Shown here one piece after another: positions 1 to 51,355 of a stretch of 62,873 nucleotides of DNA. Made by a program: the position numbers and the translations under genes. The stretch comes from a virus. The DNA lies in the IMG/VR virus record IMGVR_UViG_3300008886_000002, positions 1 to 62,873 of that record. One strand, given 5' to 3'. Positions within the stretch are counted from its first letter, which is position 1, and every line of letters begins with the position of its first letter. The notes beneath the pieces were generated by a model. The model was not told the origin of the DNA, made no database searches, and saw only the letters and a list, made by a program, of their open reading frames with translations.

Positions 1-55
1 ACCTGAAGGAAGGAGGTAACAATTCATGGCGTCCATCGCCGACGTGTTTTGTGAC
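1..55. repeat. 55-bp terminal direct repeat identical to 62819..62873 (circular-assembly overlap)
   Basis: nt 1-55 recur exactly as the last 55 nt. Genes run across the junction (chaperone stop at nt 4-6). The unique unit is 62,818 bp. Confidence 0.95.
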
Positions 56-3000
56 CGTACTTCCCGAAACTAGTGCGATAGCACCGAAGATCAAGGAAGC
101 GTTTAGGTCTGTTGACAAGGATGCTGCGGAGGCTGGGCGTCGGTGGCGCGGTGAGATTGAGCGGGAACTCAAGGACACCAAGGCCACCATCAAGGTCGAC
201 GCGGACACTGCCAAGGCTCGCGCCGAGATTGACGAGGCGGCGCGGGACCGGCACTCGAAGATCCATGTCGATGTCGACAAGTCGGGTCTCGACAGTCTCA
301 CCACCTCGTTGGGTGGCATTGGCGGGGCGGGTGGCGGCGGAATCTCAGCGATGGGCGTCGGCATCGCCGGCCTCATTCCGGTGGCTTCTGCGCTGTCGGG
401 TGCTCTGGGGTTGATCCCCGCCGCACTGGGTGGTGCTGGTGCAGCAGCGGGCACTCTGGTGACCGGTTTGTCGGGGGTGAAGGACGCCTACACGGCGGTA
501 GGAGACGCCGCGAAGACGGCGGATAAGGATCAGAAGGAGAAGACGGAGGCAGTAGCGGGAGCGACCCGTGAACTCCAGTCAGCGATCCGCTCCGAAGCGC
601 AAGCCCAAGAGGACGTTGCGAACGCCCGCAAGACAGCCCGCCAACAGCTTGACGACCTCAACTTGTCGTTGCAGGGCGGCAAGATCGATGAAGCGCAGGC
701 ATACAACAACTTGTTGAAGGCTCGCCGGGACTTGGCGACGGGCACGTTCAAAGACCAACTGGACTACAACGATGCCGTGCTGAGGGTGGACCAAGCACAG
801 CAGACGTACAACGAATCGATCCAGCGGAACACGGAGCTGCAGGACAAGGCCAACACCGCTCAGGCTAAGGGCGTCGATGGTGCCGATAACGTCGTCGCCG
901 CCAACAACCGGTTGCTCTCCACGCAGGATCAGGTCGTTGCTGCGCTGACGAAACTTGGTGACGCGCAGGAGAAGACGTCCTCGCAGCAGCAGAAGGTCAT
1001 CGACACGATGGCTGAACTGTCGCCGGTAGCGCAGACTTTCGTCAACACCCTGCAGGGGTTGAAACCCGTTTGGGACAAGCTGAAGTTCTCCGTGCAGGAC
1101 ACCTTGTTCGCGGGTGTTGGTGACCAGATCAAGTCGTTGGCGCAAACGTATATGCCGTTGTTGACGTCGGTGATGACGTCCATGGCGTCGACGATGAACC
1201 AAACGTTCGGTCAGATCGCCGCAGTGCTACAGTCACCTGCCGCTCTGGCTGGCGTGCAGTCCTTGTTCGACAATCTAACCAAAGCCTTCCAGGCGTTCAT
1301 GCCATCAATTCCCGTCTTGGTGCAGGGATTTGGACAGTTGGCTCAGGTCGGATCGGCCTTTCTGCCGCAGTTGGGTGCAGCGTTCACTGAGGCGGCGCAA
1401 GGGTTTACGAAATTCATATCCCAGGCCGCAGCGTCCGGTCAGTTGCAGCAGTGGATATCCACGGGTATCCAGGCGATGAGCCTGTTGGGGAACATCACCA
1501 AGACGGTGTTCAAAGCATTCCTCGACTTGGGCCCGTTGGGCACCGCGATCATTTCGGCGCTGGATCAAGCGTTGACGGCGTTGGCGCCAGCGATTCCACC
1601 GTTGGCTTCCACGTTCACAGCGTTGGTCGACGCATTGACCCCAATACTGCCGGTAGTTGGCACGTTGATCGCGCAGTTCGTTGGGGCTTTGGCTCCTGCA
1701 TTGACGACTTTATTCAACGCGCTTGCTCCGGTGATTACCCAATTGGCGTCGTCGCTGACCCCAGTGATAATGCAATTGGCGCCCGTGTTGGGGCAGGCGG
1801 CAATGGCCATCGCTGGACCACTCTCTCAGTCCATTGAGCAGCTAGCGCCCTTGCTGGGGCCGTTGGTTCAGGCCTTGGGTCAGTTCTTCATCACAATCGC
1901 TCCTCTGATCACTCAGATACTGAAGTTGGGCACGGAGGCACTCCCCGTCTTTACAGCGGCGCTGAAGGTGAGCCTGTCGGTCTTCACTGATGTGGTCAAG
2001 CTGATTGATTTCGGCGCCAAGACGATTCTGCCGGTGTTCATGAACACCCTCGATGCATTTGGGCAGATGTGGACGAAGATCTTCAACGGCATCAAGTCCG
2101 TCGTAAGCGAAGTATGGAACTTCATCAAGCCAATCTTTGAGAACATCAAAGGCTTTCTCGATGAGCTTCCTGGACCGCTGAAGGACTTGATCGGCATCCA
2201 CGACACGGGGGCATTGCCCCAAGGCGCCGGTTTCGTTCCAAAGGCACCAGGTACTCAATCGCCTGTAACTGTCGGCGCCGGTACTGGGGGCAGCGGTTTC
2301 GCTTGGGACAAAGTCGCTCAGGCTGAATCAAACGGCAATTGGGGCAATGACAACACTGGCGGTCACATGACGTCCTCTGGTGCTCCCCGCGGTGGGTTGC
2401 AGATCACTGATGGGACGTGGCGGTCGTTTGGTGGTACGGAGTTCGCGCCGACCGCGAACTTGGCGACTCCTGAGCAACAGAAGATTGTTGCGGACCGGAT
2501 TGCCTTCACGGGATACGCCGGGCAGGCCCCGCAGGGACTGGGTGCGTGGGAGACCATCACCAAGGGAATGGTCCCGGGAGTTACGACCAGCAGTACTCCA
2601 CCGCCGCAGATGTCGCCGACGGCCACCGCGCCTGCGGTAGCCCCCGCGATGCCTTATTCGTCAGTCCCGGCGGTTCCCACTGTGGCGTCTCCGTCGTTGT
2701 CGGGACTGCCGGATGTCAGGGGAGCCCATGACCAGATTGCAGTCGTTGCACAGTTGGCCCAACAGTTTGGGTTGAGTGTCACCGCCGGTCGCGACGATCA
2801 CTCAAAGGACAGGGGCTATCACCCCCTAGGCGAGGCCGGCGATTTCGGCAACGGTGACATGACCGCCCAGGAAGGTCAGTTCGCCAACTTCATGGCGCAG
2901 AATTTCGGCCCGTACTTGGCAGAATTGATCAATTCAAGCCCCGGTGCGCAGGTGAATATCAAGGACGGGAAGAACACTCCGGTCATTGACCAGCCAGGGT

Positions 3001-3734
3001 CGATATACAACTCCGGCCAGGCTGGATATCACGGCGATCATGACCACATCGCCATCACCGACGCGATGGCTCCGCAATTCATTGCGGCCGCCCAACAATT
3101 TCTCGGCAACGGCGCCCAGACGTCGGCCGTAAGCGTCAGTAGCGCCCCACTCGGCACGCCGCAGGCGCCGATTTACACGGCACCTGCTCCAGGCCAGATC
3201 AACGGGACGGGCCAGGACACTACTAAGCAGTTGGGGCAGGACGTCGGCGGCGACTTGTGGGAGATGTTCGGCCTCCCTGGAATGCAGAACCCGAAGGACA
3301 TGGGCATTACCAAGTTCTTCACCGGACTGCTTTCCGGCGTGCTGGGTGTCAACCTAGGCGGCAAGACCGGTGGAATGCCCGCTTCCTATTACGCCAACGG
3401 CGGTGTCAATGGAGTCGGTCAGGGTGGTGGCGGGGACATCTTTGGAAGCATTTTGCAGAACGTCTTGGGAATCAAACTTCCCGGGCAACAGGCCGGCATG
3501 CCGGATATGCCGGTAAACCCCAACAGTCCTAACGTCCTTGATGCCGCACAGTTCAAGCCGCCCGGCGGTCCTGGTTCACCTGGCCCGGGGAACGCCCCGG
3601 GTGGCCCGACGATTGACATGCGTGGGGCGAACCTTGGTGTGGACCCGGCAGGGTTCCAACAAACCATTGGCGCGGTGACGGCGTCGATGCCCCGTTGGCC
3701 CGCTCTTCAGCAGCACCTTCCGGGGCAGGGATGA
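51..3734 (+). CDS. Tape measure protein with Rpf-like transglycosylase motif and LAS-type metallopeptidase motif
   Basis: 1227-aa ORF directly after the frameshifted chaperone pair, with a long Ala/Gly/Leu-rich helical middle. Contains WDKVAQAESNGNWGN...GGLQITDGTW and HPLGEAGD...HDHIAI. The start is uncertain (GTG51 lacks an SD; ATG26 has an SD but is in another frame). Confidence 0.9.
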   Translation: MTVLPETSAIAPKIKEAFRSVDKDAAEAGRRWRGEIERELKDTKATIKVDADTAKARAEIDEAARDRHSKIHVDVDKSGLDSLTTSLGGIGGAGGGGISAMGVGIAGLIPVASALSGALGLIPAALGGAGAAAGTLVTGLSGVKDAYTAVGDAAKTADKDQKEKTEAVAGATRELQSAIRSEAQAQEDVANARKTARQQLDDLNLSLQGGKIDEAQAYNNLLKARRDLATGTFKDQLDYNDAVLRVDQAQQTYNESIQRNTELQDKANTAQAKGVDGADNVVAANNRLLSTQDQVVAALTKLGDAQEKTSSQQQKVIDTMAELSPVAQTFVNTLQGLKPVWDKLKFSVQDTLFAGVGDQIKSLAQTYMPLLTSVMTSMASTMNQTFGQIAAVLQSPAALAGVQSLFDNLTKAFQAFMPSIPVLVQGFGQLAQVGSAFLPQLGAAFTEAAQGFTKFISQAAASGQLQQWISTGIQAMSLLGNITKTVFKAFLDLGPLGTAIISALDQALTALAPAIPPLASTFTALVDALTPILPVVGTLIAQFVGALAPALTTLFNALAPVITQLASSLTPVIMQLAPVLGQAAMAIAGPLSQSIEQLAPLLGPLVQALGQFFITIAPLITQILKLGTEALPVFTAALKVSLSVFTDVVKLIDFGAKTILPVFMNTLDAFGQMWTKIFNGIKSVVSEVWNFIKPIFENIKGFLDELPGPLKDLIGIHDTGALPQGAGFVPKAPGTQSPVTVGAGTGGSGFAWDKVAQAESNGNWGNDNTGGHMTSSGAPRGGLQITDGTWRSFGGTEFAPTANLATPEQQKIVADRIAFTGYAGQAPQGLGAWETITKGMVPGVTTSSTPPPQMSPTATAPAVAPAMPYSSVPAVPTVASPSLSGLPDVRGAHDQIAVVAQLAQQFGLSVTAGRDDHSKDRGYHPLGEAGDFGNGDMTAQEGQFANFMAQNFGPYLAELINSSPGAQVNIKDGKNTPVIDQPGSIYNSGQAGYHGDHDHIAITDAMAPQFIAAAQQFLGNGAQTSAVSVSSAPLGTPQAPIYTAPAPGQINGTGQDTTKQLGQDVGGDLWEMFGLPGMQNPKDMGITKFFTGLLSGVLGVNLGGKTGGMPASYYANGGVNGVGQGGGGDIFGSILQNVLGIKLPGQQAGMPDMPVNPNSPNVLDAAQFKPPGGPGSPGPGNAPGGPTIDMRGANLGVDPAGFQQTIGAVTASMPRWPALQQHLPGQG

Positions 3735-4759
3735 GCGGCGCTTCCCGCCTCATCCGGGGCAGTGAGTACACCGGACTCGAGTGGCGATCACTGCCTCCAC
3801 GGTTGAAGGCCGAAGCGACCCGGTGGGTGTACATCGGCCCTGATGGGTCGTGGTGGGACCTGGAGGGGCGTGACGCCGGCAAGCAAGGCGTCCGCCTATC
3901 GCAAGGGTTGCAGGGCGCCTACCACCTGCCGTTCGAACAACTGTTGACTGAGGCTGCTTATCAGGTGGGTTCCACCTATGAGCGCACCAACATCAACAAA
4001 CGGGTCATCAACCTCGGTGTCGTCATCGGTGCCCGCAATCCCACCTTGAAGATGACGTCGGACGCGTACCGGCACATTGAGGCGAACTGGTGGAACGCGT
4101 GGCCGTACGACACCCCAGGTTGGTTGGGGTGCCACACCCGGTTCGGTGGGTGGCGTTGGGCGGCGGTGCAGTTGGCGAAACCCGTCGACACGACGGTGAA
4201 GATGGATCCGGCTGCGATGCAGAACAACGTGCAGCAGTGGGACATGCAAATCATGGCCGTCAACCCGTGGTATGCGAAGCGGACATTGGTGGAAACGTGG
4301 AAGGCGCACCCGGAAACGGTGGCGCAAAACGGTTTCGATGAGGAAACCATCACCATCGCCAACCGTGGCCACCTCGCGGCGTATCCACTGTTCATTTACA
4401 CCGGTCCTGGTCGGGCGTGGGTGCAGGACGGTATGACCAACAAACTTGTGGCGTTGCCGGTGTTGTCGGCGGCCGACAAGTACGGCTTGGTGGACACCGA
4501 CCCCGCCCATCGCACCCTGACTGGGGCGGTGGATCCGGTGGACAACATCTTCTACCAGTTCATCCGCTCGTCGAAGGTGTTGGATTTCTTCCTCCACGAC
4601 TTGGAGGCGTTGGGGTTGCCGTTGTGGCGGCGCGCCAACGGTATCCGGTTCACCTCTCCGATCCCTCCGAAGACCGTCGCGAACCTGCGGGTTCGCCATG
4701 ACACCGCGGGAGGCAGTGTGACCGTCCTTCTGCCGCAACGATTCATCAGGCCGGCGTGA
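3731..4759 (+). CDS. Minor tail protein (distal-tail-protein position)
   Basis: ATGA overlap with the TMP stop. It is the first gene after the TMP. 342 aa. Confidence 0.75.
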   Translation: MSGASRLIRGSEYTGLEWRSLPPRLKAEATRWVYIGPDGSWWDLEGRDAGKQGVRLSQGLQGAYHLPFEQLLTEAAYQVGSTYERTNINKRVINLGVVIGARNPTLKMTSDAYRHIEANWWNAWPYDTPGWLGCHTRFGGWRWAAVQLAKPVDTTVKMDPAAMQNNVQQWDMQIMAVNPWYAKRTLVETWKAHPETVAQNGFDEETITIANRGHLAAYPLFIYTGPGRAWVQDGMTNKLVALPVLSAADKYGLVDTDPAHRTLTGAVDPVDNIFYQFIRSSKVLDFFLHDLEALGLPLWRRANGIRFTSPIPPKTVANLRVRHDTAGGSVTVLLPQRFIRPA

Positions 4760-7041
4760 CTGAGCCACTGCGTTTCGCCCACAACGTTGGTGGGGTTTTC
4801 CAGTCGAAGGTCATCGGTGCGTTGGAGGCCCCTTTGCCGGCCAGTGACCCGATGTCGGCGTACCGGTATCTGAATTCGCGTCGGCAAACGTTGATCGATT
4901 CGACCCGCCAACGACCTTTGATCCGGATGCAGGACAAGAACCTCAATCAGTTGGCGACGATCGGGCAGGAAATGTCCTGCGTCACCGAAGAGATCGCCGC
5001 CGACTCGGGGTCAGCGACAGTTGTGATCCGCGGCGGCGACTACTTGGGGGACTTCGTCCGCAACGCCGTCAGGATCGAAGAGGATCTGCATTTGAGTGTG
5101 GATCCGATCGGGACGCAGCCGACGTGGAAGACCCGGTGGGGCGGGAAGATCACCAACATCGGGGTGAAGCGCGACTCTTCGGGCATTCATACGGTGGAGT
5201 TGACGGCGATCTCCAACCGCGAGCATTTGAAGAACATTCTGATTGCGAGCACTCCGTTGTTTCCGCCGGAAGTTCAGCCCATCAAATTGTGGATGCTGCC
5301 CGCGAACACTAGGACGGCGTGCGCGGTGACGTTGTGGATTCAGCTGTTGAGGGCGTTCTCCCCGTTCGCGTCGGTGCCGACGAACATCTTCAACCCTGCT
5401 GGGTGGATCAACCCGCTCGGTCCTGACGCGTTGTTGAATGTGCTGCCCACGAACTGGCCGATTCAGGTGCAGTTCGTCAACCCCTTGTTCGATCAGTCTC
5501 GGACGACGTTGTTGACGTCGGCGTGGCAGGACTTCCACACCTCCACGGTGGACATCTTGAAAGACGCCGGTGTGATGGCCCGCGCGTACACGTATTTCAC
5601 TGAGGACGAGGACAACCCGCACCCGGAGTTGGAGGCGATCGTCCCCGACGAGTTCGCGGACTTGGCCCGCCCTGGCCGCAACGCGGTCGTCGTGGCGTTC
5701 GAGGACCACTCGGGGTATTCGGGGCCGACGGGAACCGCGATCGACGGTGTCATCAACTTGTTCTCCTCCACATTGGACGACTTGATCACCGAGACGGTGT
5801 TCCCCATCGACTCCGACGACGACGGGGAAGTGGACCCCGTGTTCCGCAAGATCTTCGGGGTGGCGCCGGACCCGCCGTGGGCGGTGTACCGCGACGGTCA
5901 GGAGTCCGGGATCATCGAGTCCGGCTACTTCCAGCACAAGGGTCCCGTCAAGACCACCATGACCGGCGGTAAATCACCCAAGCTGGTGAATGATTTGCAG
6001 TGCGTGGCGGGTGACACGATCATCGAAGGCCCCGACGGGGATGAGCGGATCGACGTCCTCGCCGAGAGTGGGCGGTCGTTTCGAGTGTGGTCGATCACCC
6101 CCCAGGGGGTGCGGGTGCCGGCGACGGCGGTGACGGCGTTCAAGAAGGGTCAGGCGGAACTGTTCGCCTACACCTTGGACGACGGACGCAGCATCAAGGC
6201 CACCGAGGAGCACCGCTTCCTCACCGACTGCGGCTTCCTCCATGGCCGCGCACTGAAGGTGGGCGACAAGGTCGGCACCGTCGACCACGCGAACGTCACG
6301 GGTGTTGATGTGGCGGCGGCGTGGGATGTCCCGGACCGCTTCTACCAAAACATGATTCCCACGAAGGCGCTGACGTACCGGACGTTGGTCAGCGTCGAAT
6401 CGTTGGGTGTCGACGACTTCTACGACATGACGGTTCCTGGGTGGCAGAACTACTCCGGTAACGGGTTTTGGAACCACAACACGTTCGGGATCCGGTTCGC
6501 CCTGTCGCAACTGCAGTTGGTGGTGACCTCCGGTGTGTTCGGTCAGGCCGGCGGCCCACCATTGGGGGCAGGTCTCTCGGACCTCTACCAGGGTCAGCTC
6601 GACAACACACTGTTCAGTTGGGAGCGGTACACCAATCCCATCCGCGCACTGCTCACCGGCGATTTCGGTTACTTGGAGCGGGTGGAACGCGGAAACGGTG
6701 TCGCCTACACCATTTCCAGTTTCCTGACGTTGCGGACTGGGGATCAGAAGACGAAACCGTTCCGCGGTTTCAAGACCCAAATCCGCAACGGCGCCCCATA
6801 CATCATCAACCGCGACATCCTGCTCGATGACAGGGTGGGGTTCGAGGTGGACGGCATCTTGTACGTCGACCAGGTGGCGGCCATCCGGTACGAGTACGAC
6901 CGCGGAAAGCCCATCACGTACACGGTGTCCATAGGTGACGACACCCGTCACGACGACCCGATCGCGCAAGGATTCCGGGCCATCCAAGCGGGCGCATCCC
7001 TAGTCGGCGGATTGATAGGTCAAGACACCCTCTTCTCGTGA
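4756..7041 (+). CDS. Minor tail protein (tail-tip position) carrying an in-frame mini-intein
   Basis: GTGA overlap with the upstream stop. 761-aa ORF, second gene after the TMP. Hint-domain blocks are present internally. Confidence 0.85.
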   Translation: MTEPLRFAHNVGGVFQSKVIGALEAPLPASDPMSAYRYLNSRRQTLIDSTRQRPLIRMQDKNLNQLATIGQEMSCVTEEIAADSGSATVVIRGGDYLGDFVRNAVRIEEDLHLSVDPIGTQPTWKTRWGGKITNIGVKRDSSGIHTVELTAISNREHLKNILIASTPLFPPEVQPIKLWMLPANTRTACAVTLWIQLLRAFSPFASVPTNIFNPAGWINPLGPDALLNVLPTNWPIQVQFVNPLFDQSRTTLLTSAWQDFHTSTVDILKDAGVMARAYTYFTEDEDNPHPELEAIVPDEFADLARPGRNAVVVAFEDHSGYSGPTGTAIDGVINLFSSTLDDLITETVFPIDSDDDGEVDPVFRKIFGVAPDPPWAVYRDGQESGIIESGYFQHKGPVKTTMTGGKSPKLVNDLQCVAGDTIIEGPDGDERIDVLAESGRSFRVWSITPQGVRVPATAVTAFKKGQAELFAYTLDDGRSIKATEEHRFLTDCGFLHGRALKVGDKVGTVDHANVTGVDVAAAWDVPDRFYQNMIPTKALTYRTLVSVESLGVDDFYDMTVPGWQNYSGNGFWNHNTFGIRFALSQLQLVVTSGVFGQAGGPPLGAGLSDLYQGQLDNTLFSWERYTNPIRALLTGDFGYLERVERGNGVAYTISSFLTLRTGDQKTKPFRGFKTQIRNGAPYIINRDILLDDRVGFEVDGILYVDQVAAIRYEYDRGKPITYTVSIGDDTRHDDPIAQGFRAIQAGASLVGGLIGQDTLFS
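6001..6480 (+). other. Mini-intein (160 aa, no endonuclease domain) within the minor tail protein
   Basis: Cys1 in CVAGDTIIEG, block B TxxH in KATEEHRFLT, C-terminal FYDMTVPGWQNYSGNGFWNHN followed by +1 Thr. In frame with the host ORF. Confidence 0.85.
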
Positions 7042-7421
7042 ATCGTGTGGTCAAGGATGGCGTTGCTCGTCGACCAGATGGGACTGTGCGCCAGCGGGTG
7101 TGCAAGACGTGTCAGGCGGATGCTCAGCGTCGTCGTCGTGAGAAGCGCTTGACGACGTGTTCGAAGGGTCACCCGTTTGACGGTGTCGCCGTGCACGCCA
7201 ACGGCCTTAAGCGGCGTTATTGCAAACGGTGCAGGTCCGAGCAGGTCAGCGCGCAAATGACGAAGCGCCATGCGGAACGTACGCATTGCAAGCGGGGGCA
7301 TCTCATCGACGGCGTGAACAAGAATCAGCGGTTTTGCCGGACGTGTAAGCGGGACAACGCTGCCAAGCGTGCGGAGAAACCAAATGTGTGTGTGCTTGTG
7401 CGCGAAGTTAAACCGACTTAA
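7038..7421 (+). CDS. Cys-rich zinc-ribbon protein (HNH-accessory-like repeats, no nuclease core)
   Basis: GTGA overlap. Repeated C-x2-GH...R-x-C-x2-C units resemble the C-terminal tails of the NUMOD4-HNH proteins at 15172, 37474 and 47390. Confidence 0.6.
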   Translation: MNRVVKDGVARRPDGTVRQRVCKTCQADAQRRRREKRLTTCSKGHPFDGVAVHANGLKRRYCKRCRSEQVSAQMTKRHAERTHCKRGHLIDGVNKNQRFCRTCKRDNAAKRAEKPNVCVLVREVKPT

Positions 7422-7439
7422 CTGAAACAATAATTCTCG

Positions 7440-7468
7440 AAGGCCCTCACCAATGGTGGGGGCCTTTT
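7440..7468 (+). terminator. Rho-independent terminator (copy A of a repeated terminator-SD module)
   Basis: 12-bp stem aaggccctcacc/ggtgggggcctt with a 3-nt loop and a T-tract. Followed by gcatggaaggacg and GTG 7484. Confidence 0.7.
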
Positions 7469-7483
7469 GCATGGAAGGACGTC

Positions 7484-49570: not shown

Positions 49571-49879
49571 ATGACCCTCCAGTTCTTCACCGTCACCGGG
49601 AACCTCCGGGCCATCGTCGTCGATTACGTCGACGCGGGCGTAACCCCCGACATCTCCAACGTCACCTGCACCATCGACTTCATCCCCCGCGTCCCCCGCG
49701 GCCAAGTCGTCTGGGCATCCGGACTCACACCACCCCAAGGCATCCTCATCGCACCCATCAGGGCACGATTCGACGGTGACGGCGCACTCCACACCATCGT
49801 CGGCGACCTTGGCGTTCAACTCCTCGCCAACACCCCTGACATCGACATGGACCAACTGTTGTATGACGTGGTCTTCTGA
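49571..49879 (+). pseudogene. 5' part of a tail-protein paralogue truncated by IS insertion
   Basis: The ORF ends at a TGA that is the first 3 nt of the IS left inverted repeat. It continues in frame at 51227 once the IS and one TTC copy are removed. Confidence 0.85.
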
Positions 49880-49930
49880 AACGCCCTGGAAATCCCGGAG
49901 GCTCCTGACCTTGGAAACGAGGATGCAGGT

Positions 49931-50275
49931 ATGCCGAAGGAACAGTCGCCGGGGAAACCCACGGCGCGTCGATACAGCCCCGAGGAGAAGGCCGCTGCGG
50001 TACGGATGGTCCGCGCCCTGCGTGCCGAGCTGGGCACCGAGCAGGGCACGGTGTCGCGGGTAGCCCGTCAGCTCGGCTACGGGGTCGAGTCGGTGCGCTC
50101 CTGGGTGCGCCAGGCCGACATCGACGACGGGTATGCGCCAGGGGTATCCACCGCGGAGTCTCAGCGGGTCAAAGAACTCGAGCAAGAGATACGAGAACTC
50201 AAGCGCGCCAATGAGATTCTGAAGCGAGCAGCCAGTTTCTTCGGGGCGGAGCTCGACCGCCAACACAAGAGATAG
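49931..50275 (+). CDS. IS3-family transposase OrfA (HTH plus leucine zipper)
   Basis: RRYSPEEKAAAVRMV...VARQLGYGVESVRSWVRQ...ELEQEIRELKRANEILKRA. Confidence 0.9.
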   Translation: MPKEQSPGKPTARRYSPEEKAAAVRMVRALRAELGTEQGTVSRVARQLGYGVESVRSWVRQADIDDGYAPGVSTAESQRVKELEQEIRELKRANEILKRAASFFGAELDRQHKR

Positions 50276-50346
50276 TCACCTTCATCGACGACAACCGCGA
50301 GGAGTTCGGGGTCGAGCCCATCATCACCGTCCTGCACACCGCAGGG

Positions 50347-51192
50347 GTGACGGTGGCCCCGAGCACCTACTACGCGGCCAAGTCGCGCGCTCCGTCGCAG
50401 CGGGCCTGCCGTGACGCTGTCCTGGGTCCGGCCCTGGTGGCGCTCTGGGAGGACAACTACCGGGTCTACGGGGTTCGCAAGCTGTGGAAGACGGCACGTC
50501 GGGCCGGCCACGACGTCGGCCGCGACCAGGTGGCCCGGCTGATGCGGGCGGCCGGGATCGAAGGCGCACGGCGCGGCAAACGGGTGCGAACCACCAAACC
50601 CGACCACAGCGCCGAACGGCACCCGGATTTGGTCAATCGGAAGTTCACCGCGAGCGCCCCGAACCAATTGTGGGTTACGGATCTGACGTTCGTGCCGACC
50701 TGGGCCGGGGTGGCGTATGTCTGCTTCATCGTCGACGCCTACTCCCGGATGATCGTTGGCTGGCGCGTCGCATCCCACATGCGGACCACCATGGTCCTTG
50801 ATGCGTTGGAGATGGCGCGCTGGTCACGCGGAAACACGTTGCCGGGCTTGACATGTCACTCGGATGCCGGATCGCAATTCACATCTATCCGCTACGGCGA
50901 ACGACTCGCCGAGATCGGCGCAGCCCCGTCGATCGGTTCGATCGGGGACAGCTATGATAACGCCCTCGCGGAGACGGTGAACGGCTACTACAAGGCCGAG
51001 CTGATCTACGGGCCGGCCCGCACCGGCCCGTGGAAGACCGTCGAAGACGTCGAGTTGGCGACCCTGGGATGGGTGTACTGGCACAACACCGCCCGCCTTC
51101 ACGGCTACCTCAGCGACGTCCCTCCGACCGAGTTCGAAGCCGCATTCTACGATGCACAGCGGACCGACCAAACCCTGGTCGAAATCCAATAG
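50347..51192 (+). CDS. IS3-family transposase OrfB (DDE catalytic core; made as an OrfAB -1 frameshift fusion)
   Basis: WVTDLTF, HSDAGSQFTS and DNALAETVNGYYKAE (D, D, E plus K). The -1 frame is open from 50215 and overlaps the orfA end at 50275. Confidence 0.9.
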   Translation: MTVAPSTYYAAKSRAPSQRACRDAVLGPALVALWEDNYRVYGVRKLWKTARRAGHDVGRDQVARLMRAAGIEGARRGKRVRTTKPDHSAERHPDLVNRKFTASAPNQLWVTDLTFVPTWAGVAYVCFIVDAYSRMIVGWRVASHMRTTMVLDALEMARWSRGNTLPGLTCHSDAGSQFTSIRYGERLAEIGAAPSIGSIGDSYDNALAETVNGYYKAELIYGPARTGPWKTVEDVELATLGWVYWHNTARLHGYLSDVPPTEFEAAFYDAQRTDQTLVEIQ

Positions 51193-51223
51193 CTCGAGCC
51201 TCCGACAGAACCAGGGCGTTTCA

Positions 51224-51355
51224 TTCAGCAACCTGAACTTCGCCAAGGCACCAGACGACGCACTCATCTCACCCTTCGCCTTCGAAGCCCCCAAGGCCAC
51301 CACGACCGTCGACCTGTCACAACTCGAACGCATACCTGCCCTACCCGGACTCTGA
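51224..51355 (+). pseudogene. 3' part of the IS-disrupted tail-protein paralogue (TTC duplication plus 42 codons)
   Basis: SNLNFAKAPDDALISPFAFEAPKATTTVDLSQLERIPALPGL aligns with FTFQAPLTATTVDLVEVTPLPG of 16552..17238. Confidence 0.8.

What the first reader, a model, noticed from the sequence alone, without database searches (positions are those of the whole stretch)
6001..6480. 160-aa mini-intein inside a structural tail-tip protein
An in-frame 480-nt insert in minor tail gene 4756..7041 has the hallmarks of a class 1 intein.
- It starts with Cys in CVAGDTIIEG.
- It has block B TxxH (KATEEHRFLT).
- It ends DDFYDMTVPGWQNYSGNGFWNHN, followed by Thr as the +1 residue.

There is no room for a homing-endonuclease domain. 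The extein junction is GGKSPKLVNDLQ / TFGIRFALSQLQ. Inteins usually sit in ATPases and replication enzymes. One in a tail protein implies that splicing must precede tail assembly. That could make assembly sensitive to redox state or temperature.
Basis: partly seen in the sequence, partly recalled or inferred. Interest (0 to 1): 0.7.

Follow-up and report, generated by a model that had tools for sequence, protein, structure and literature searches.

The report
Mini-intein inside a phage baseplate hub
A 160-residue self-splicing protein element (a mini-intein with no homing nuclease) interrupts the baseplate hub protein of an uncultured mycobacteriophage-like virus, and related copies sit at eight or more different positions in this protein family, which is an unusual host and an unusual spread for an otherwise canonical intein.

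Summary
Window 6001..6480 is an in-frame 480-nt insert in gene 4756..7041. It encodes a 160-aa class 1 mini-intein: Cys1, TxxH (T68/H71), block F Asp142, His159-Asn160, and +1 Thr.

- **Intein identity.** It passes Pfam Intein_splicing and TIGR01445. It matches the Ssp DnaB mini-intein over its full length, and its model has the HINT fold.
- **Empty alleles.** Intein-less homologues (85-88% identical) show an exact 480-nt gap, CAG|ACG, giving ...VNDLQ|TFAIR.
- **Host protein.** It is the trimeric baseplate hub, a homologue of Bxb1 gp25 and Douge gp18, encoded after the tape measure and distal tail genes. By alignment, the site lies in the fiber-binding domain.
- **No nuclease.** No homing endonuclease is present in any frame.

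New here: 16 related inteins (49-85% identical) occupy at least eight positions in hub proteins that share only 18-86% identity. All catalytic residues are invariant, and the intein is under purifying selection (dN/dS 0.06-0.3). None of 2,358 deposited phage records with a hub homologue carries it, and two actinophage intein surveys do not list this host protein.

Splicing before tail-tip assembly is inferred, not shown. Redox or temperature control has no support. Verdict: a real, canonical intein in a new host protein, of moderate interest.

The parts
4756..7041 (+). Baseplate hub (Gp37-like 'minor tail') precursor gene: 761 codons plus stop
   Evidence: ORF. Pfam Sipho_Gp37 E 2.3e-28. PHROG 110 minor tail protein E 1e-156. 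The same gene call appears on Logan contigs L005 and L006.
4756..6000 (+). N-extein, 415 aa, ending ...GGKSPKLVNDLQ
   Evidence: Alignment A1 and the DNA alignment.
6001..6480 (+). Class 1 mini-intein, 160 aa
   Evidence: Exact 480-nt gap in intein-less alleles L001 and L004.
6001..6003 (+). Cys1 codon (TGC), block A nucleophile
   Evidence: Invariant in 16 of 16 hub inteins.
6202..6213 (+). Block B, T68-E-E-H71 (TxxH)
   Evidence: T68 and H71 are invariant. They align with KATANHRFLT of the Ssp DnaB intein.
6283..6375 (+). Variable linker (about residues 95-125), where larger inteins carry an endonuclease
   Evidence: Poorly conserved. Deleted in P0102 and P0129 (131-132 aa). Carries +18 aa in P0124. 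Lowest pLDDT outside the C-terminus.
6424..6426 (+). Block F Asp142 (YDMTV)
   Evidence: Invariant. Aligns with FDLTV of the Ssp DnaB intein.
6475..6480 (+). Block G, His159-Asn160 (penultimate His, terminal Asn)
   Evidence: Invariant.
6481..6483 (+). +1 Thr codon (ACG), first residue of the C-extein and second nucleophile
   Evidence: The +1 residue is Thr in 15 and Ser in 1 of the 16 hub inteins. The Thr is present in the empty alleles.
6481..7041 (+). C-extein, 186 aa plus stop, starting TFGIRFALSQLQ
   Evidence: PHROG 20962 minor tail protein at residues 595-756.
51..3734 (+). Tape measure protein gene (context)
   Evidence: Transglycosylase-like domain, E 6e-15. Same synteny in related loci.
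3695..4759 (+). Minor tail protein in the distal-tail-protein position, just upstream (context). Gene callers start it at about 3731.
   Evidence: PHROG 106 minor tail protein E 4e-75. A 342-aa gene is called in L005.

Best explanation
Window 6001..6480 encodes a functional class 1 mini-intein with no homing endonuclease. It is inserted in the baseplate hub protein of a siphovirus related to mycobacteriophages.

**Proposed mechanism.**
1. The gene is translated as a 761-aa precursor.
2. The HINT domain folds.
3. Cys1 makes a thioester with Gln415 (N-S acyl shift).
4. Thr+1 attacks that thioester, giving a branched intermediate.
5. Asn160 cyclises with help from His159 and releases the 160-aa intein.
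6. An O-N shift leaves the 601-aa hub with the native sequence ...VNDLQ-TFGIRF....

**Consequence for assembly.** Only the spliced hub is expected to trimerise correctly and bind the central fiber. The site maps to the fiber-binding domain, at the N-terminal end of a predicted long helix. Splicing would therefore precede or gate formation of the tail-tip complex.

**Evolution.** The element belongs to a hub-specific lineage of endonuclease-less inteins. This lineage has been kept under purifying selection, exchanged between divergent hub genes, and has reached at least eight different sites in the family.

**Shown:** anatomy, fold, the exact empty site, conservation, selection, and the site diversity.

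**Inferred:** the chemistry (from established class 1 intein mechanism), the timing relative to assembly, and the route of spread.
For: **Intein identity.** Pfam PF14890 and TIGR01445 score above their cut-offs. The sequence matches the Ssp DnaB mini-intein over its full length, E 7e-11. The AF2 model has pLDDT 83.7, and Foldseek gives TM 0.72-0.85 to solved mini-inteins.

**Exact insertion.** There is a 160-aa / 480-nt gap between CAG(Q) and ACG(T) in homologues P0003 and P0005, which are 85-88% identical.

**Catalytic residues.** C1, T68, H71, D142, H159 and N160 are invariant in 16 hub inteins, and +1 is Thr or Ser.

**Selection.**
- Intein dN/dS is 0.06 for L010 vs L013, with dS equal to that of the extein.
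- Intein dN/dS is 0.23 for the window vs L003.

**Extein is the hub.** The profile of intein-less homologues hits 9d93 gp25 (E 2.4e-55) and 8zdo gp18 (E 4.9e-9). Foldseek of the P0005 model ranks Bxb1 and Douge hubs first. The synteny tape measure, distal-tail-position gene, hub is seen in every locus examined.

**Position of the site.**
- It aligns to Douge BHP 399|400, inside the fiber-binding domain 369-486 (PMC13033339).
- In the P0005 model, Q420|T421 lies at the N-terminal end of helix 414-438.

**No endonuclease.** ORFs in the other frames have no Pfam hit. The Foldseek alignments to 139-160-residue mini-inteins span 158-160 columns, so the HINT fold accounts for the whole 160 aa.

**Lineage and sites.**
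- The top 7 of 966 representatives (>53% identical) are all hub proteins.
- Junctions occur at eight positions.
- Intein identity is flat at 49-85%, against 18-86% for the exteins, r = 0.42.
- For the window vs L003, intein dS is 1.46 against 0.73 for the extein.
Against: - No experiment shows splicing, and no proteomic data exist for this uncultured phage.
- Block F position 13 is Gln or Glu rather than the frequent His. This is not a defining residue, but it could slow Asn cyclisation.
- dS values are near saturation, so the dN/dS figures are approximate.
- The domain mapping rests on a distant alignment to Douge BHP (E 4.9e-9) and on a model with pLDDT 75.
- The route of spread without an endonuclease is unexplained.
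Confidence: 0.9

Rival explanations
1. The Hint domain no longer splices. It is kept in the mature hub as an inserted decoration or structural domain, or it performs only N- or C-terminal cleavage to process the hub.
For: Splicing was not tested. Block F position 13 is Gln, not His. The hub family tolerates other large insertions, such as the roughly 40-aa inserts in P0004 and P0035.
Against: - All residues needed for the complete splicing pathway, plus the +1 nucleophile, are invariant across 16 copies in eight different flanking contexts.
- The insert splits the most conserved motifs of the family: SPxxVN..Q|T, GPTG|T and QGQLDN|T.
- Most close homologues lack it, with no compensating change.
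- A decaying domain would not show dN/dS of 0.06.
Confidence: 0.05
2. It is a conditional (regulatory) intein. Splicing is held back by redox state, temperature or a partner protein, so that tail-tip assembly is timed or made environment-dependent.
For: - Conditional splicing is documented for other inteins (PMC5790916, PMC7360933).
- The intein sits in the protein that closes the tail tube and holds the tape measure C-terminus (PMC13033339).
- Repeated occupation of the same domain at several sites could reflect benefit rather than parasitism.
Against: - There is no conserved second Cys for a disulfide trap. C77 varies across the family, and no Cys lies in the twelve extein residues on either side of the junction.
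- Most hub homologues, including ones 85-88% identical, do without the intein.
- No data bear on the conditions.
Confidence: 0.1
3. It is a bacterial intein-like (BIL) or other non-intein Hint domain rather than a true intein.
For: There is a weak hit to PT-HINT (E 0.00095, below the cut-off). BIL and Hedgehog Hint structures appear far down the Foldseek list.
Against: - The best matches by sequence and by fold are bona fide inteins (DnaB, RecA, DnaE).
- The termini are canonical: C1, HN and +1 Thr.
- The insert sits inside a conserved motif, and empty alleles exist. From general knowledge of BIL domains, they lie in variable regions of non-conserved proteins.
Confidence: 0.02
4. It is an assembly chimera or sequencing artefact that joins an intein from another gene into the hub gene.
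For: The window comes from an uncultured or metagenomic source with no close cultured relative.
Against: - The identical protein is on 3 contigs; the two places shown come from two different runs.
- Homologous intein-bearing hubs occur in JGI, Logan and IMG/VR data and in a Nocardia genome.
- The reading frame and junction are exact.
- GC3 of the intein (85.6%) matches that of the exteins (84.1% and 79.0%).
Confidence: 0.01

Closest known systems
Ssp / Npu DnaB mini-inteins (PDB 1mi8, 6frg, 4o1r)
   Same: Class 1 chemistry set: Cys1, TxxH, block F Asp and terminal HN. HINT fold, TM 0.73-0.82. Similar length (about 140-160 aa) with no endonuclease. The sequences are alignable end to end, E 7e-11.
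   Different: - Only 22-24% identical.
- +1 is Thr, not Ser.
- Block F position 13 is Gln, not His.
- The Ssp mini-intein was engineered by deleting the endonuclease, whereas this one is naturally small.
- The host is a virion baseplate hub rather than a replicative helicase.
Actinobacteriophage inteins catalogued by Kelley et al. 2016 (PMC5050341) and Gosselin et al. 2025 (bioRxiv 10.1101/2025.01.02.630785)
   Same: Phages of Actinobacteria, class 1 splicing domains, sporadic distribution with many intein-free homologues, and intein/extein phylogenies in conflict. Structural exteins are already known: portal, minor capsid and tape measure.
   Different: - The Gp37-like baseplate hub is not among the 13 or the 19 extein types listed.
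- Only 9 of the 784 inteins in that survey are mini-inteins, and those are treated there as vertically inherited remnants.
- Here the whole lineage is endonuclease-less and sits at eight or more sites.
- None of the 2,358 deposited phage records with a hub homologue carries it.
Terminase large subunit inteins of mycobacteriophages (seven insertion sites, PMC5050341)
   Same: One phage protein family invaded at many different, highly conserved positions.
   Different: - From general knowledge, terminase sites are mostly held by endonuclease-bearing inteins; this was not examined here.
- The hub sites are held by one closely related endonuclease-less lineage (49-85% identical), plus one unrelated intein (P0058).
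- The hub has no nucleotide-binding motif.
Inteins in P-loop ATPases (SNF2 helicase, AAA_25, IstB-like): the nearest non-hub relatives
   Same: 43-48% identical over the N-terminal splicing region, with the same termini (CV.G[DE]T ... HN|T).
   Different: They carry an extra insert of roughly 110-150 aa in the linker. They sit in Walker A motifs, for example GPYG|C and GDG|C...HHN|TGVGKG.
Mycobacteriophage baseplate hub proteins Bxb1 gp25 (9d93) and Douge gp18 (8zdo)
   Same: The spliced product is a homologue: E 2.4e-55 and 4.9e-9, and TM about 0.6 for the P0005 model. Length is about 600 aa and the gene sits in the same position after the tape measure and distal tail genes.
   Different: Those solved hubs have no intein. 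Identity is only about 20%.

Membership tests
Class 1 intein | HINT (Hedgehog/intein) fold | tested here: met
   AF2 model with pLDDT 83.7. Foldseek TM 0.72-0.85 to the Ssp DnaB, Npu DnaB and Mtu RecA splicing domains.
Class 1 intein | Block A: Cys or Ser as the first residue | tested here: met
   Cys1 (TGC at 6001..6003), invariant in 16 homologous inteins.
Class 1 intein | Block B TxxH | tested here: met
   T68-E-E-H71, invariant, aligned to the Ssp DnaB TANH.
Class 1 intein | Blocks F and G: conserved Asp in F, penultimate His, terminal Asn | tested here: met
   D142, H159 and N160 are invariant. F:13 is Gln rather than His, which is not a defining residue.
Class 1 intein | +1 extein residue Cys, Ser or Thr | tested here: met
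   Thr (ACG at 6481..6483). Thr in 15 and Ser in 1 of the 16 copies.
Class 1 intein | In-frame insertion in a host protein whose intein-less homologues are contiguous at that point | tested here: met
   Exact 160-aa / 480-nt gap.
Class 1 intein | Autocatalytic protein splicing that yields ligated exteins and a free intein | not testable with these tools
   Needs expression and SDS-PAGE/MS. Purifying selection and invariant catalytic residues are only indirect support.
Class 3 intein (considered) | No N-terminal nucleophile; WCT triplet with the block F Cys as first nucleophile | tested here: not met
   Cys1 is present, and block F position 4 is Asp142, not Cys.
Mini-intein | No homing endonuclease domain, in frame or in other frames | tested here: met
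   Foldseek alignments to 139-160-residue mini-inteins span 158-160 columns, so the HINT fold accounts for the whole 160 aa. ORFs in alternative frames have no Pfam hit.
Baseplate hub protein (Sipho_Gp37 / BHP) as extein | Sequence membership in PF14594 | tested here: met
   99.7 bits against a cut-off of 26.2. PHROG 110, E 1e-156.
Baseplate hub protein (Sipho_Gp37 / BHP) as extein | Structural similarity to solved hubs | tested here: met
   Tested on the intein-less homologue P0005 (85-88% identical to the window exteins). Foldseek ranks 9d93 (E 2e-34, TM 0.61) and 8zdo (E 1e-27, TM 0.57) first.
Baseplate hub protein (Sipho_Gp37 / BHP) as extein | Gene order: tape measure, distal tail protein, hub | tested here: met
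   Window 51..3734, 3695..4759 and 4756..7041. The order is the same in L001, L003, L009 and L012.
Baseplate hub protein (Sipho_Gp37 / BHP) as extein | Trimer at the tail tip of the virion | not testable with these tools
   Known for Bxb1 and Douge homologues (PMC13033339, PMC13252515). Not observable here.
Bacterial intein-like (BIL) domain (considered) | Location in variable regions of non-conserved proteins, with no empty-site homologues | tested here: not met
   The insert lies inside invariant motifs and empty alleles exist.

The most novel reading that the evidence does not exclude
The hub inteins may be a lineage of endonuclease-less mini-inteins that still moves. It would move between divergent hub genes and to new positions within them, without a homing endonuclease of its own. 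It may be retained because delaying hub maturation benefits the phage, by gating the tail-tip initiator complex.

Either part would contradict the usual view of mini-inteins as immobile, decaying remnants. It would also give a natural post-translational checkpoint in virion assembly.
Probability: 0.2. Interest if true: 0.8.

Novelty: new member of a known kind. Interest (0 to 1): 0.55.

Why it matters
**For intein biology.**
- It adds a virion baseplate protein with no nucleic-acid or nucleotide binding to the list of intein hosts. That runs against the generalisation that phage exteins bind nucleic acid (PMC5050341).
- It supplies a natural test set: one endonuclease-less intein lineage at eight or more sites of one protein family. 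This bears on how inteins reach new sites and whether mini-inteins are really dead ends.

**For phage biology.** The first building block of the siphovirus tail tip is made as an inactive-looking precursor, so protein splicing is a possible rate-limiting step of tail assembly.

**For engineering.** Naturally compact (131-163 aa) Thr+1 inteins that tolerate many different flanking sequences are useful candidates for protein engineering.

Tried and rejected
- **Megablast of the hub gene against deposited phages.** No match. A further 23 kb of the window gave only short matches. The phage has no close cultured relative.
- **tblastn of the intein against 50,697 phage records.** Only seven weak hits, in ribonucleotide reductase, DnaB and terminase genes. 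The 145 records with at least 80% coverage turned out to be intein-less hubs with slightly longer N-terminal alignments.
- **Hidden endonuclease in another frame or on the antisense strand.** The long antisense ORF 5974..6987 and two 73-aa ORFs have no Pfam hit. The antisense ORF also runs well outside the intein.
- **An adjacent free-standing endonuclease acting in trans.** L003 has an HNH gene, and the window has a Cys-rich ORF related to HNH endonucleases. However, L009-L013 have none within about 5 kb. Not supported as a general mechanism.
- **Transposon-like ends.** No meaningful direct or inverted repeats flank the insert.
- **A shared DNA target motif at the different sites.** Nothing beyond the Thr codon (AC) was found. 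There is slight microhomology at site c (GACAAC|AC against the intein end CACAAC|AC).
- **Word-indexed searches with the intein alone or as a profile.** They returned only a few fragments, so they gave no census.
- **Redox-trap idea.** No conserved partner Cys.
Full report
**1. The observation**

ORF 4756..7041 (+) encodes 761 aa. Positions 6001..6480 translate to a 160-aa segment, CVAGDTIIEG...YSGNGFWNHN, followed by Thr.
- Cys1.
- K-A-T68-E-E-H71-R-F-L-T (block B).
- DDFYD142MTVPGWQNYSGNGFWNH159N160 (blocks F and G).
- The junction GGKSPKLVNDLQ / TFGIRFALSQLQ.

**2. Is it an intein?**

- Pfam Intein_splicing scores 45.7 bits on the segment alone, against a cut-off of 35.8 (E 7.6e-12).
- NCBIfam TIGR01445 (intein N-terminal splicing region) scores 35.6 bits against a cut-off of 24.5. 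It starts exactly at residue 1 of the segment, which is residue 416 of the precursor.
- phmmer against PDB sequences aligns residues 2-156 with the Synechocystis DnaB mini-intein (6frg, 1mi8; E 7e-11). TEEH pairs with TANH, and YDMTVPG with FDLTVPG.
- An AlphaFold2 model built on an 11-sequence alignment has mean pLDDT 83.7.
- Foldseek against the PDB returns only inteins at the top: Ssp and Npu DnaB, Mtu RecA and DnaE. TM scores are 0.72-0.85.
- The first nucleophile is present and block F position 4 is Asp, so this is class 1, not class 3.
- Those Foldseek alignments span 158-160 columns against mini-inteins of 139-160 residues, so the HINT fold accounts for all 160 residues and leaves no room for an endonuclease. 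The overlapping ORFs in other frames (5974..6987 minus strand, 6087..6308 plus strand, 6389..6610 minus strand) have no Pfam match.
- No repeats flank the insert.

**3. The empty site**

Among the 120 best homologues of the precursor, most are 590-650 aa and carry only PF14594.
- The closest, P0003 and P0005, are 85-88% identical over the exteins. They read ...KSPKLVNDLQ|TFAIRY... without interruption.
- At the DNA level, the intein-less loci L001 and L004 show a gap of exactly 480 nt between CAG (Gln) and ACG/ACC (Thr).
- GC3 of the intein (85.6%) matches that of the exteins (84.1% and 79.0%), so it is not a recent import from a compositionally different genome.
- The identical 761-aa protein is on three contigs; the two places shown are from runs ERR3150492 and SRR25993483. 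That excludes an assembly artefact.

**4. What the host protein is**

- The gene follows the tape measure gene (51..3734, Rpf-type transglycosylase domain). Between them lies a 342-354-aa minor tail protein in the distal-tail-protein position. The same order is seen in all related loci.
- A profile of 67 intein-less homologues hits two solved structures. One is 9d93 'Baseplate hub, gp25' (E 2.4e-55), identified by Foldseek as the mycobacteriophage Bxb1 tail tip. The other is 8zdo 'Baseplate hub protein (gp18)' of mycobacteriophage Douge (E 4.9e-9).
- The AF2 model of P0005 (pLDDT 75) matches these two first (TM about 0.6). It then matches the gp27 / gp44 / VgrG hub superfamily.
- In Douge, the hub is a funnel-shaped trimer. 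It docks on the distal tail protein hexamer, encloses the tape measure C-termini, and anchors the central fiber through a fiber-binding domain (residues 369-486) (PMC13033339). The hub acts as the gate for tape measure release and genome ejection (PMC13252515).
- By the HMM alignment, the window's insertion point corresponds to Douge residues 399|400, inside the fiber-binding domain.
- In the P0005 model it lies at the N-terminal end of a long helix, 414-438.
- A 160-aa HINT domain at that point should be incompatible with the mature fold. This is the basis for inferring that splicing precedes, or is needed for, tail-tip assembly. That step is an inference.

**5.

A full HMMER scan of 1.84 billion representative proteins with the intein gave 966 hits.
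- The seven best (>53% identical, E < 1e-30) are all hub proteins. Six carry PF14594. The seventh, P0124, aligns as a divergent hub and sits directly after a large upstream ORF (about 560 aa) in the distal-tail-protein position on an IMG/VR contig.
- The next tier (43-48% identical over the N-terminal half) consists of larger inteins with an insert of roughly 110-150 aa. They sit in SNF2 helicases, AAA_25 and IstB-like ATPases, at Walker A sites.

Sixteen hub inteins were extracted and the spliced exteins aligned. This gives eight insertion points, listed here in the window's spliced numbering:

| After residue | Junction | Carried by |
|---|---|---|
| 172 | PIQ\|T | P0124 |
| 326 | GPTG\|T | P0009 |
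| 415 | VNDLQ\|T | window, P0002, P0004, P0091-93 |
| 417 | VNELISA\|T | P0123 |
| 420 | ISAAIN\|T | P0126 (same sequence and junction in a Nocardia sp. hub ORF, L008) |
| 455 | KPLY\|T | P0127 |
| 457 | QGQLD[ND]\|T | P0097, P0102, P0125, P0129; fragments P0121, P0122, P0237, P0273 |
| 486 | FQDG\|S | P0128 |

A ninth site, GLDN|C, holds an unrelated intein resembling those in phage ribonucleotide reductase genes (P0058).

Four related hubs (P0123, P0126, P0127 and P0128; exteins 40-66% identical) each carry the intein at a different position. Each is uninterrupted at the positions used by the others. The site differences are therefore not alignment artefacts.

All the sites fall in the most conserved motifs of the family. 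Six of the eight map to the region that aligns with the Douge fiber-binding domain.

**6. Evidence that the element is functional and has moved**

- C1, T68, H71, D142, H159 and N160 are invariant in all 16 copies. The +1 residue is Thr (15 copies) or Ser (1 copy).
- The linker (about residues 95-125) is variable. It is deleted in two copies (131-132 aa) and expanded in one.
- Intein identities are flat (49-85%) while extein identities run from 18 to 86% (r = 0.42).
- Hubs that share only 20-25% identity carry inteins that are 53-56% identical.
- Conversely, the window and L003 have exteins 86% identical but inteins only 64% identical. Their intein dS is 1.46 against 0.73 for the exteins. The two inteins are therefore older than the split of their host genes, which implies exchange at the same site.
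- L010 and L013 show the opposite pattern. Their dS values are equal (about 1.6) and intein dN/dS is 0.06, against 0.13 for the extein. That indicates long vertical maintenance under purifying selection. dS is close to saturation, so these ratios are approximate.
- P0126 and P0127 are each other's nearest relatives in both intein (66%) and extein (66%), yet they differ in site.

**7. How it spreads is unexplained**

- There is no endonuclease in the intein.
- An HNH gene lies between the tape measure and distal-tail-position genes in L003. The window has an extra Cys-rich ORF with partial similarity to HNH-endonuclease PHROGs (7038..7421).
- Five other intein-bearing loci have nothing of the kind within about 5 kb.
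- The insertion sites share no DNA motif beyond the Thr codon.
- Homologous recombination between mosaic phage genomes can account for transfer at the same site. The changes of site require rare illegitimate events or an unknown agent.
- One untested idea: the hub motif GPTG|T resembles the GPxG|T Walker A sites occupied by the nearest non-hub relatives.

**8. Comparison with what is known**

- The 2016 survey of mycobacteriophage inteins found 13 extein groups, none in the tail. It stressed that all of them bind nucleic acid (PMC5050341).
- The 2025 survey of about 800 actinophage inteins lists 19 extein types. These include portal, minor capsid and tape measure proteins, and an unassigned 'baseplate wedge domain' protein, but not the Gp37-like hub. 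Only nine of its inteins are mini-inteins, which it regards as vertically inherited remnants (bioRxiv 10.1101/2025.01.02.630785).
- In 50,697 deposited phage records, 2,358 contain a hub homologue. All align in two pieces spanning about 1.7-1.8 kb, so they are intein-less. The intein alone finds only distant inteins in other genes.
- The PF14594 + PF14890 domain pair is already flagged automatically in metagenome protein tables. The architecture therefore exists in databases but was not found described in the searchable literature.

**9. Verdict**

This is a canonical class 1 mini-intein in a new kind of host protein, the siphovirus baseplate hub. The suggestion of redox or temperature control has no support. 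Its main interest lies in the lineage as a whole, which is hub-specific, endonuclease-less, conserved, and present at eight or more sites.

Noticed in passing
window 7038..7421 (+): A 127-aa Cys-rich ORF with repeated C..GH(P/L).DG....R.C..C motifs lies between the hub gene and the Phage_gene29-like gene. It has partial hits to two PHROG HNH-endonuclease families (E about 2e-9), but no HNH catalytic domain was detected. It is absent from the related loci L001-L004 and L009, where the hub gene abuts the gene29-like gene. Automatic gene callers instead call a 150-aa ORF on the minus strand here (7020..7472), which has no hits. It is probably a remnant or DNA-binding module of a mobile HNH gene.
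   Followed up: partly
window about 49878..51224 (ALIL pseudoknot at 50230..50361, +): An IS3-family insertion sequence sits inside the phage genome. It is 82% identical at the DNA level to Mycobacterium avium IS1601. An Rfam ALIL frameshift pseudoknot (77 bits) lies between two plus-strand ORFs (49931..50275 and 50347..51192). This supports a mycobacterial host.
   Followed up: partly
L003 2396..2914 (relative of the window, hub protein P0002): A free-standing NUMOD4 + HNH_3 endonuclease gene is inserted between the tape measure gene and the next minor tail gene. The window has no such gene at this position.
   Followed up: no
P0058 (hub homologue, JGI metagenome), between GLDN and YQGQLDN: A second, unrelated 134-aa mini-intein (CFGGET...TLVSN, +1 Cys) sits in the same hub family at yet another site. 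Its nearest relatives are inteins in phage ribonucleotide reductase genes, mostly the anaerobic (class III) type (35-38% identical).
   Followed up: partly
L007 4467..6794 (IMG/VR UViG 3300033067_000375; protein P0124): The intein copy in this very divergent hub carries an extra 18-aa Cys/His-rich insert (CNCPHHGAAGLVRLCPVH) in the linker. It looks like a small zinc-binding motif.
   Followed up: no
window 51..3734 (+): The tape measure protein carries an Rpf-type transglycosylase-like domain (residues 751-834, E 6e-15). This motif is usual in mycobacteriophage tape measure proteins.
   Followed up: no
whole window: No tRNA genes were found and there is no close cultured relative. The best DNA matches to deposited phages cover 3% or less of the 23 kb tested. 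The terminase, portal and capsid genes at 53-59 kb, followed by the tail genes that continue at the window start, suggest a permuted, near-complete phage genome of about 63 kb.
   Followed up: partly
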